A DNA stretch of 64,000 nt from Ptychomitrium polyphyllum (Eukaryota). Made by a program: the position numbers and the translations under genes. Below are positions 8,476 to 10,264 of this stretch, piece after piece (positions within the stretch are counted from its first letter, which is position 1; every line of letters starts with the position of its first letter). The notes beneath the pieces are model-generated. The model was not told the origin of the DNA and ran no database searches. It worked only from the letters and a program-made list of their open reading frames with translations. The stretch is taken from assembly GCA_973851085.1 (NCBI GenBank), contig OZ316776.1, positions 1,426,001 through 1,490,000 of the forward strand, in the 5' to 3' direction.

Positions 8476-9757
8476 CTAAAGACAGACTTCTGTGAGGCCG
8501 GGGCCTTTCGGCTCCTCAATACCATCATCATCAGCCACATCAGAAGCATCAGGGGCACCTACAGGCTCCAGAAGATCGCCTTTCAAACAGCCATCTTCTC
8601 CAAGTTTGGGTTCGACGACTGTGCCGCCTATCAACTTGTCTTCTTTTGCATCCCCTAAAGGATCAACTACAGCATCTTTTCCATCCTCCAATAAACCTCC
8701 AGTGTGCACGTCAACACAGCTATCACCCTACAGTCAGAACAAAGAATGATATCAATTACAGCGCCAAGACCAAATTCGGACACATCAAAGCTAGTCATCG
8801 ATGATCAATTCGTGAGCTGGTAGCCATTGAACCACACCTGTAGATTTACATAACACCTGAAAAGTCCATCATTCAAATAGAGAAGGAACATAAGACGTGT
8901 TACCAGCTACTTGGCAGCGCCTGGCTAGACTGGAACATTGAAAACACCTCGACAACTTTAGTGTTGACAATGAATATTTTATGTAATGATGAATTTGATT
9001 TCATCCCAAAGATTGAGGGGTACCGGTGTTGTTCCAGCAGTTCCAATCGGAGTATCCTTCAAGTCTCCACTTGTGGGCGTCGGATTCGAAATACAGCCTC
9101 CAATGTCCCCAACCTTGCTCTGCATGTTCACCTTAAGGCTATCGGCAGCTGCCTTAGCTTTTTCAGCGGCTATCCGAAATGCCTCCTGAAAATCAAGTTG
9201 ACATGATATTGTCATATTACACGTAAACCAAGGATAGAGATTTGATTCTGAGACAAGATCAGATGGGCAACTCTCATTGCAAACAAATACCGTACGTAGG
9301 AACAATGTTATTTTCTCTCTTAATATACAGTATGAGTCAACACATTCCTAAGCATATCCCTAGCGCTTACTTCTTCGTGTATTCTTAATTCCTCACACTT
9401 TCTCGCAACGAAGTCCTTATACTCTTGAATCATACTCTGAAACAAAGTAATGCGAAACCATAAGAGATACTTCTATTCACGACTATGCACAACCAACTGA
9501 AGAATTGAGCAGCAAAGATAGAAACCGCCACTAAAGGACCCTGCTTGTTCGAATGTAATTACGAAGGTACGAAACAAAGATGCACCAAAACTACAGTGGA
9601 AATAACCAACTACATAAAAAGACAACCCAGCACAGCCAAATTGAGAACGTCAATATACCTGGATCCCTTCAATGGGTAATGCAGAATCCTCAAGACCGGC
9701 ATCTTCCAGCTTGGGAGGCATGCTGGATAGGAACCCTGCATTGCCCTGAAACTCCAT
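8476..9757 (-). CDS. Conserved plant protein of unknown function (about 170 aa, acidic); exons 9757-9659, 9185-9024, 8727-8476
   Basis: Spliced frame MEFQGNAGFLSSMPPKLEDAGLEDSALPIEGIQ|EAFRIAAEKAKAAA...GTTP|GDSCVDVHTGG...EVCL*, with both introns GT-AG and phase 0. I recognise PPxLEDAGLEDxALP..IQEAF..AA as a motif of an uncharacterised land-plant family (from memory). Confidence 0.85.
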
Positions 9758-10027
9758 ATCTGTACAACATGGAACCACTTCGCAAATCAGCTACACAAAC
9801 AAGAACCACCAAAACAACAGGAAAGGAACAAACCCGGAACTTCCACGGCACAAACGACTGGGTAAACCCAGATTTTAAGAAAACAACAAAAAACCCCCAT
9901 TTAAAGAGTAGAATAATTCAAAAACCCACAACACGAAGACCAATCCAGCAAACGAAGCATCAAAACCCTGTCCGTCCACAAACTCCCAAAAATATAAATT
10001 GACAAAATAGACCCAAGGAAAACTAAC

Positions 10028-10264
10028 CTAAGAAGGGGGAGAAGCGGGGGAATCAGAGGATGCAGGGGCAGCGGCCTTCGGGGCGAACTCGAAGCGGCGC
10101 CGGAACTTGGCGAGCGTGCCGACGGTCTCGGACTGCTTCCCGGGGTCGCGAACGTAGGAGGGGCGGTCGAGCTTGAAAGCCTTGGCAGCGAGCACGCGGA
10201 CGAGGCGACCGTGCGGCGAGACGATACGGATCCACTGCAGCGCAGGATGTACGCCCTTCTTCAT
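10028..10264 (-). CDS. bL31m: Plant mitochondrial ribosomal protein L31 (bL31m)-like, 78 aa, single exon
   Basis: MKKGVHPALQWIRIVSPHGRLVRVLAAK...VGTLAKFRRRF matches the bL31 N-terminal MKKGIHP and C-terminal G..AKF.RRF signatures, and the plant mitochondrial type MKKGIHPQMQWISYVTQSGRL. Confidence 0.85.
   Translation of the reverse strand: MKKGVHPALQWIRIVSPHGRLVRVLAAKAFKLDRPSYVRDPGKQSETVGTLAKFRRRFEFAPKAAAPASSDSPASPPS

What the first reader, a model, noticed from the sequence alone, without database searches (positions are those of the whole stretch)
8476..10264. Apparent bicistronic nuclear mRNA: bL31m and a second conserved gene joined as TAG-AT-ATG after splicing
Seen in sequence (minus strand): the bL31m stop TAG (10030-10028) is followed with no spacer by a splice donor GTTAGT (10027). 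A T-rich 268-bp intron runs to the acceptor TGTACAG (ending 9760), and 2 nt later comes the ATG (9757) of a three-exon ~170-aa PPKLEDAGLEDSALP protein. The spliced junction reads TCT TAG AT ATG GAG. The two ORFs are in different frames, so readthrough cannot fuse them, and the second ATG has a strong context (-3 G, +4 G). The only obvious promoter element (telo-box, 10409-10417) lies upstream of bL31m. Inference: a full-length mitoribosomal protein acts as a 78-aa upstream cistron, and ORF2 is made by termination-reinitiation or leaky scanning. Polycistronic nuclear mRNAs are documented in green algae but are rare in land plants. A stop codon at an exon junction with downstream introns could also couple expression to NMD, and the pairing hints at a functional link for the uncharacterised family.
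Basis: partly seen in the sequence, partly recalled or inferred. Interest (0 to 1): 0.88.

Follow-up and report, generated by a model that had tools for sequence, protein, structure and literature searches.

The report
Moss two-protein mRNA: bL31m plus partner
In this moss, the gene for a small mitochondrial ribosome protein and an unrelated, uncharacterised gene are likely spliced into one messenger RNA, as an assembled transcript from a relative shows, and ribosomes likely make the second protein by slipping past the first start codon, a rare but already known arrangement in plants.

Summary
The locus is real. ORF1 (78 aa) is bL31m. ORF2 (170 aa) belongs to an acidic land-plant family with no Pfam match. 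Both are under purifying selection.

The shared mRNA is supported by relatives; no RNA of this species was available. Contig L002 is intron-free and carries both ORFs, and it leaves its unspliced twin L001 exactly at a GT donor 5 nt after the bL31m stop. Ceratodon has adjacent gene tags, and four transcript-sized records match in length. The Sphagnum-type loci fetched lack the pairing.

The 2-nt spacer is not established. The relative's spacer is 40 nt, and a second acceptor at 9791 would give 33 nt in frame.

ORF2 is most likely made by leaky scanning. A minor read-through transcript degraded by NMD is the main rival. Translation of ORF2 from this mRNA is untested.

This is a new member of a known kind (CDC26-TTM3, algal bicistrons). 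The pair was not found in 10 paper searches.

The parts
10410..10417 (-). Telo-box 153 nt upstream of the bL31m ATG; likely part of the shared promoter
   Evidence: A telo-box lies at -130 in L001, and a 7-letter version at -156 in Sphagnum-type L003.
10028..10264 (-). ORF1, bL31m, 78 aa, no internal ATG in any frame; start context -3 G, +4 A
   Evidence: 6xyw_AA E 8e-10; 9evs_1c 'bL31m' E 1e-8; dN/dS 0.05-0.07
9760..10027 (-). Intron 1 between the two ORFs; donor directly after the stop; proximal acceptor at 9760
   Evidence: The corresponding donor is used in the relative (L001 against L002). Splicing in this species is inferred.
9758..9793 (-). Alternative acceptor (TAG 9793-9791), branch-like CTGAT (9790-9786) and weak out-of-frame ATG (9770); the segment resembles the exonic spacer of L002
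   Evidence: 102 of 20000 shuffles and 259 of 18276 window 38-mers reach the score
9659..9757 (-). ORF2 coding exon 1 (33 codons), holding the family's most conserved motif
9371..9436 (-). Conserved in-frame cassette exon (22 codons) giving a 192-aa form
   Evidence: Present in gene models P0035, P0060 and P0068; absent from L002 and from the 168-171 aa proteins on transcript-sized contigs.
9024..9185 (-). ORF2 coding exon 2
8476..8727 (-). ORF2 coding exon 3 with stop

Best explanation
The bL31m gene and a downstream uncharacterised gene are likely transcribed from the bL31m promoter and spliced into one messenger RNA in this moss, as an assembled transcript of a relative shows, and the second protein is likely made by ribosomes that scan past the first start codon. 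Shown: two conserved ORFs; a donor at or just after the bL31m stop; an intron-free two-ORF contig in a relative. Inferred: splicing removes the stretch where a bL31m-only RNA could have ended, so the two-ORF form is the main product. Inferred: most ribosomes start at AUG1 and make bL31m, and the rest cross an AUG-free 237 nt and start ORF2. Inferred: translation of ORF2 clears the downstream exon-junction marks and limits NMD. Inferred: the pair arose when ORF2 came under the bL31m housekeeping promoter in mosses other than Sphagnum, with no need for the proteins to work together.
For: (1) L002, 1018 nt, is intron-free and holds bL31m at 10-234 and ORF2 at 275-808. It is 100% identical to L001 over 239 nt and parts from it exactly at a donor matching 8 of 9 consensus positions. 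(2) Ceratodon has adjacent tags and consecutive accessions in two strains. At least four matches arose in about 3 of 10,000 jitter trials; a fifth, cross-source match (915) was dropped. (4) Four larger contig lengths are also shared (7306, 423394, 5063, 9446). (5) dN/dS is 0.05-0.06 for ORF1 and 0.22 for ORF2 at dS 1.4-2.3 between the window and L002. (6) The window's intron 1 has no telo-box, site II, TATA or AATAAA-type motif. (7) ORF1 has no internal ATG here; the single one in L002 is followed at once by a stop. (8) The spacer is not conserved (2 or 33 nt against 40 nt), and no stable fold was found (z +3.0 and +0.85), which disfavours coupled reinitiation and an IRES. (9) Leaky scanning is the tested mechanism in algal bicistrons (PMC11892635, passages).
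Against: No RNA of this species was seen, and no translation data for any species. Only one spliced contig was read, and it is a short-read assembly; L004 shows that such assemblies can merge two genes. The DNA of the length-matched contigs was not seen. The ORF1 start context is the same as in the Sphagnum-type copy that lacks ORF2, so there is no sign of tuned weakness. AUG absence is not significant: only three codon pairs could form one (p at least 0.125), and Met-free cores also occur in Sphagnum and liverworts. The intron of L001 does contain a 7-letter telo-like motif and a TATAAA. In Arabidopsis read-through transcripts, ORF2 was rarely translated in 7 of 8 cases (PMC9768141). Upstream ATGs at 10388 and 10365 would complicate scanning if the start site lies near the telo-box.
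Confidence: 0.55

Rival explanations
1. Same shared mRNA, but ORF2 is made mainly by reinitiation after ribosomes finish bL31m.
For: The stop and start are close in both species read (2 or 33 nt, and 40 nt). The ORF1 context has a purine at -3 and is no weaker than in the unpaired copy. AUG depletion fits this model too (PMC11892635).
Against: Reinitiation is generally poor after a 74-78-codon ORF (established knowledge, recalled). The spacer length and frame differ between species. No stable structure was found. Algal reporter tests favoured leaky scanning.
Confidence: 0.2
2. Two ordinary neighbouring genes, each with its own mRNA; the joined form is a minor intergenic-splicing read-through product that NMD removes and from which ORF2 is hardly translated.
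For: Arabidopsis has 271 such loci, 158 with intergenic splicing, and 89 of the 271 first genes are predicted organellar (PMC9768141). Ceratodon annotates two genes. The L001 intron has promoter-like motifs. Moss NMD responds to junctions downstream of a stop (PMC6009662).
Against: The donor sits 0-5 nt after the stop in two species separated by dS above 1.4. Transcript-sized records pair up in four further cases. An ORF2-only RNA starting in the window's intron would carry ATGs at 9770, and at 9900 and 9960 if it started further up. A minor, unstable form would be unlikely to be the assembled contig repeatedly (inference).
Confidence: 0.18
3. The locus makes a bL31m-ORF2 fusion protein, by use of the in-frame acceptor at 9791 with read-through of the UAG, or by another splice.
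For: The 9791 acceptor gives a 33-nt, stop-free, in-frame spacer, and a C follows the stop.
Against: In L002 the spacer is out of frame and a stop follows five codons later. None of the proteins held carried both motifs (78 with the bL31m motif, 60 with an ORF2 motif), although one search covered 93-336 aa.
Confidence: 0.04

Closest known systems
CDC26-TTM3 bicistronic transcript of plants (Lorenzo-Orts 2019; not read, seen through passages of PMC7943633, PMC3426882 and PMC11892635)
   Same: A small conserved subunit of a large complex sits upstream of an unrelated gene on one nuclear mRNA; NMD is a likely pressure.
   Different: Different proteins. CDC26-TTM3 is conserved across plants and tested; this pair appears limited to mosses other than Sphagnum, has an intron between the ORFs, and is untested.
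Green-algal bicistronic loci translated by leaky scanning (PMC7896298, PMC11892635; passages and supplement searches)
   Same: Short, often mitochondrial ORF1, AUG-poor path to ORF2, short spacer. The supplement lists MRPL63 as first gene of a low-confidence pair, and a locus labelled MRPL23.
   Different: A land plant. No L31 entry was found in those supplements, but they carry few functional names. A weak ORF1 context was not shown here.
Intergenic-splicing read-through transcripts of Arabidopsis (PMC9768141; passages)
   Same: An intron spans the gap between two ORFs and would remove a 3' end site; first genes are often organellar.
   Different: Those are minor NMD substrates beside monocistronic mRNAs. 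Here there is almost no room for a separate 3' exon, and the layout is kept over saturating synonymous distance.
Human two-protein transcripts such as STREMI-SLC35A4 (PMC13303939; passages)
   Same: A mitochondrial small protein upstream of an unrelated gene; two independent genes came to share a transcript.
   Different: That pair arose by retroposition in vertebrates; ORF2 here keeps its introns.

Membership tests
bL31m (plant mitoribosomal L31) | Sequence homology to the solved plant mitoribosome chain | tested here: met
   6xyw_AA E 8.4e-10 over residues 1-67; 9evs_1c E 9.9e-9
bL31m (plant mitoribosomal L31) | Pfam Ribosomal_L31 above the curated cut-off | tested here: inconclusive
   15.3 bits against 27. 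All 8 relatives that matched it (of 10 scanned) also fall below the cut-off.
bL31m (plant mitoribosomal L31) | Incorporation into the mitochondrial large subunit | not testable with these tools
   Needs proteomics or a structure from moss
Conserved plant bicistronic mRNA (CDC26-TTM3 type) | Two complete ORFs on one spliced mRNA | tested here: met
   In the relative L002/L001. Not shown for the window's species.
Conserved plant bicistronic mRNA (CDC26-TTM3 type) | Both ORFs conserved and their order kept across species | tested here: met
   Not kept in the 5 long Sphagnum-type loci.
Conserved plant bicistronic mRNA (CDC26-TTM3 type) | Both proteins translated from the shared mRNA | not testable with these tools
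   Needs Ribo-seq or reporters
Conserved plant bicistronic mRNA (CDC26-TTM3 type) | The joined form is the main or only transcript | tested here: inconclusive
   Length matches and no promoter motifs in the window's intron, but motifs in the L001 intron
Algal leaky-scanning bicistrons | ORF1 start context weaker than ORF2 and than single-gene mRNAs | tested here: inconclusive
   ORF1 lacks +4 G and ORF2 has it, but both follow from residue 2, and the unpaired copy has the same context
Algal leaky-scanning bicistrons | AUG depletion upstream of ORF2 | tested here: inconclusive
   0 in the window, 1 start-stop in L002; not significant
Intergenic-splicing read-through transcripts | Each gene also has its own start site and poly(A) site | tested here: inconclusive
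   Motif scan only; no CAGE or 3' end data
Coupled termination-reinitiation | Conserved, tightly spaced stop and start | tested here: not met
   2 or 33 nt in the window against 40 nt in L002
Alternatively spliced or read-through fusion ORF | A fused protein exists and the frame is conserved | tested here: not met
   No protein held has both motifs; the L002 spacer is out of frame with a stop

The most novel reading that the evidence does not exclude
In seed-free plants and their algal relatives, bL31m is a methionine-free carrier cistron that has hosted different downstream genes: this acidic protein in most mosses, and perhaps a GNAT acetyltransferase in Closterium, where one gene model fuses the two. 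Seed plants would have released it, and their copies carry 2-8 internal methionines (45 rows). Mosses would then hold a hidden class of obligate two-protein mRNAs, with core organelle subunits missing from annotation, as the probable Physcomitrium bL31m (P0003, no NCBI record) suggests.
Probability: 0.2. Interest if true: 0.75.

Novelty: new member of a known kind. Interest (0 to 1): 0.5.

Why it matters
Few conserved two-protein nuclear mRNAs are described in land plants. This one appears to be present in Physcomitrium, where gene targeting and NMD mutants exist, so leaky scanning, reinitiation and NMD escape can be tested directly. It also warns that a mitoribosomal subunit may sit unannotated in the 5' leader of an unknown gene, so knockouts or promoter edits of that gene could hit mitochondrial translation.

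Tried and rejected
Own-species RNA: no RNA holder was listed, and both runs cover the introns without joints. This is no evidence either way.

No whole genome is held for this window, and the records behind the Sphagnum-type loci are not held. The look-up of encoding contigs was closed, so the DNA of the length-matched contigs, of Ceratodon, Physcomitrium, liverworts and ferns was not seen.

ORF2 scans of the viral and prokaryote collections found no relative (0 of 157 and 0 of 179 pattern matches).

ORF2 function: no Pfam family above cut-off (weak MoeA_N hits rejected). No solved relative (best E 1.1). The Atlas gave only unnamed streptophyte clusters. Both models were low confidence, with one helix at about residues 29-55, and the fold search found nothing at E 0.001 or better.

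Complex prediction of bL31m with ORF2 returned no verdict (score 0.00, alignments not used).

The ORF2 tree had little support (4 of 14 inner branches starred) and was not used to date the pairing.

Look-ups of earlier findings by sequence, by place and by the first word set found nothing.

Rejected: an IRES (no stable fold) and a conserved fusion protein.

Full report
OBSERVATION. The minus strand carries a 78-aa ORF at 10264-10028 whose TAG is followed directly by GTTAGT. A 268-nt stretch of 47% T then ends in CAG at 9760, and an ATG follows at 9757. Exons 9757-9659, 9185-9024 and 8727-8476 give 170 aa, and intron-free homologues align to exactly these pieces. The donor matches 7 of 9 consensus positions, a level reached by 3.5% of 7091 GT sites in the window; 5 of 1548 TAGs are followed by GTnAG. 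The two public runs that hold the stretch cover the introns without joints, so the splice was not seen in this species.

IDENTITY. ORF1 matches two solved chains, 6xyw_AA ('Ribosomal protein L31', E 8e-10) and 9evs_1c ('bL31m', E 1e-8); that these are plant mitoribosome structures is recalled. ORF2 has relatives in mosses, Selaginella, ferns, Citrus and grasses (21 hits among 5937 candidates). It is 90% identical to the Ceratodon protein and has a pI of 4.1. It has no Pfam family, and low-confidence models show one helix in an otherwise unstructured chain. Its function remains unknown. Between the window and L002, dN/dS is 0.05-0.06 for ORF1 and 0.22 for ORF2 at dS 1.4-2.3.

ONE TRANSCRIPT. 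The metagenome scan confirmed 12 loci among 112 pattern matches. Two are weak hits that I ignored (L011, L012), eight are Sphagnum-type, and L001 and L002 share one sequence. L002 (1018 nt) has no introns and holds bL31m at 10-234 and a complete ORF2 at 275-808. L001 is identical to it over 239 nt and then continues into GTAAGA, 5 nt after the stop, a donor matching 8 of 9 positions. L002 is therefore the spliced form. This is one short-read contig, and L004 shows that assemblies can merge head-to-head genes, but the L002 join is a same-strand splice.

Indirect support comes from three sources. First, Ceratodon has adjacent tags and consecutive accessions in two strains. Second, complete bL31m proteins and intron-free 168-171 aa ORF2 proteins share exact longest-contig lengths within one source at 1102, 1250, 964 and 966 nt. 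I compared 9 bryophyte bL31m lengths with 17 moss ORF2 lengths under 1.5 kb; fern, seed-plant and most single-exon rows were left out, and a cross-source match at 915 was dropped. At least four matches arose in about 3 of 10,000 jitter trials. Third, four larger lengths are shared (7306, 423394, 5063, 9446). The DNA of these records was not seen. P0003 shares 7306 with exon pieces matching the Physcomitrium ORF2 (P0066) and has only Logan records, which suggests an unannotated bL31m there (inference).

LIMITS OF THE PAIRING. None of the 5 long Sphagnum-type loci has ORF2 within about 5 kb downstream. Named Sphagnum bL31m records lie on contigs of 18-20 Mb and ORF2 records on contigs of 29-31 Mb. 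L004 runs about 780 nt past the stop unspliced. A second Sphagnum-like bL31m (P0010, P0027) was not tested. Liverworts, lycophytes, ferns and seed plants were not tested at DNA level.

THE JUNCTION. The relative's spacer is 40 nt, not 2. A TAG at 9793-9791 has 18 T in the preceding 30 nt and would leave 33 nt, close to the 35 nt of L002 after its junction. That spacer is in frame and stop-free, but it contains a weak out-of-frame ATG at 9770. The 9760 acceptor has 11 T, a branch-like CTGAT 27 nt upstream, and excludes that ATG. I rate 9760 somewhat more likely (about 60%, a judgement); both may be used. A fusion is unlikely: the L002 spacer has a stop after five codons, and no protein held carries both motifs.

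MECHANISM. A telo-box lies 153, 130 and 156 nt upstream of the bL31m ATG in the window, L001 and L003. The window's intron 1 has none of the promoter or poly(A) motifs scanned, whereas the L001 intron has a 7-letter telo-like motif and a TATAAA. ORF1 has no internal ATG here, and one start-stop ATG in L002. The leader and ORF1 fold no better than shuffles. The variable spacer argues against coupled termination-reinitiation. Leaky scanning, tested in algae (PMC11892635), is the best reading.

The sequence signs for leaky scanning are weak. Only three codon pairs could form an AUG. The core is Met-free in 32 of 32 bryophyte-type proteins, including the unpaired Sphagnum type, against 2-8 Met in 45 seed-plant-type rows. 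ORF2's +4 G holds in 45 of 45 family members. The ORF1 context equals that of the unpaired copy. With the 9760 acceptor, junctions lie 101 and 263 nt after the bL31m stop. Moss NMD responds to such junctions (PMC6009662), so ORF2 translation would be expected to protect the mRNA (inference). My estimates: shared spliced mRNA in this species 0.9; main form 0.75; whole mechanism 0.55.

WHAT IS KNOWN. I saw passages of PMC3426882, PMC7896298, PMC11892635, PMC9768141, PMC6009662, PMC7943633 and PMC13303939. I searched supplements of PMC9305500 (six files unreadable), PMC7896298, PMC9768141 (one file unreadable) and PMC11892635. Lorenzo-Orts 2019 was not read. Ten library searches listed no paper on this pair. 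Subscription papers, bioRxiv supplements and genome-browser annotations were not seen and could hold it. The Arabidopsis gene identifiers used in those searches were recalled. Plant dicistronic mRNAs (HG8, CDC26-TTM3), algal bicistrons including mitoribosomal genes and intergenic-splicing read-through are all described. This is a new member of a known kind. Unchecked scan notes report other moss bicistron candidates; they are leads only.

VERDICT. A real, conserved moss locus, very probably transcribed as one spliced two-ORF mRNA. The exact junction and the translation of ORF2 remain open. Interest 0.5.

Noticed in passing
window 9371-9436 (-): A 66-nt in-frame cassette exon with conservative substitutions between this moss, Ceratodon (P0035, P0060) and a Physcomitrium-like model (P0068); absent from L002 and the transcript-sized proteins.
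   Followed up: partly
P0102 (CAI5967530.1, Closterium sp. NIES-65): An 861-aa gene model joins a Met-free bL31m to a GNAT acetyltransferase domain; possibly bL31m upstream of a different partner, or an annotation error.
   Followed up: partly
L003 3566-4096 and about 8460 onward; L008 end; L010 913: In Sphagnum-type loci bL31m is head-to-head with a minus-strand gene (spliced in L004). The next same-strand gene looks like a ribonucleotide reductase small subunit (label recalled). L008 ends 9 nt after the stop at a possible donor, and L010 lacks about 237 nt of the leader.
   Followed up: partly
window 7871-7943 (-): A tRNA-Lys(TTT) gene 533 nt downstream of the ORF2 stop, the only tRNA in the window.
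   Followed up: no
window 10028-10085 (-) and P0001, P0014, P0016-P0019: The bL31m tail in the paired mosses is Pro/Ser-rich, often with runs of 4-6 prolines just before the stop, which could slow ribosomes; the unpaired Sphagnum type has a Ser-rich tail as well.
   Followed up: no
window about 7260-7670: A long 5-nt tandem repeat near the 3' end of a plus-strand gene that looks like an IQ-domain protein (label recalled).
   Followed up: no
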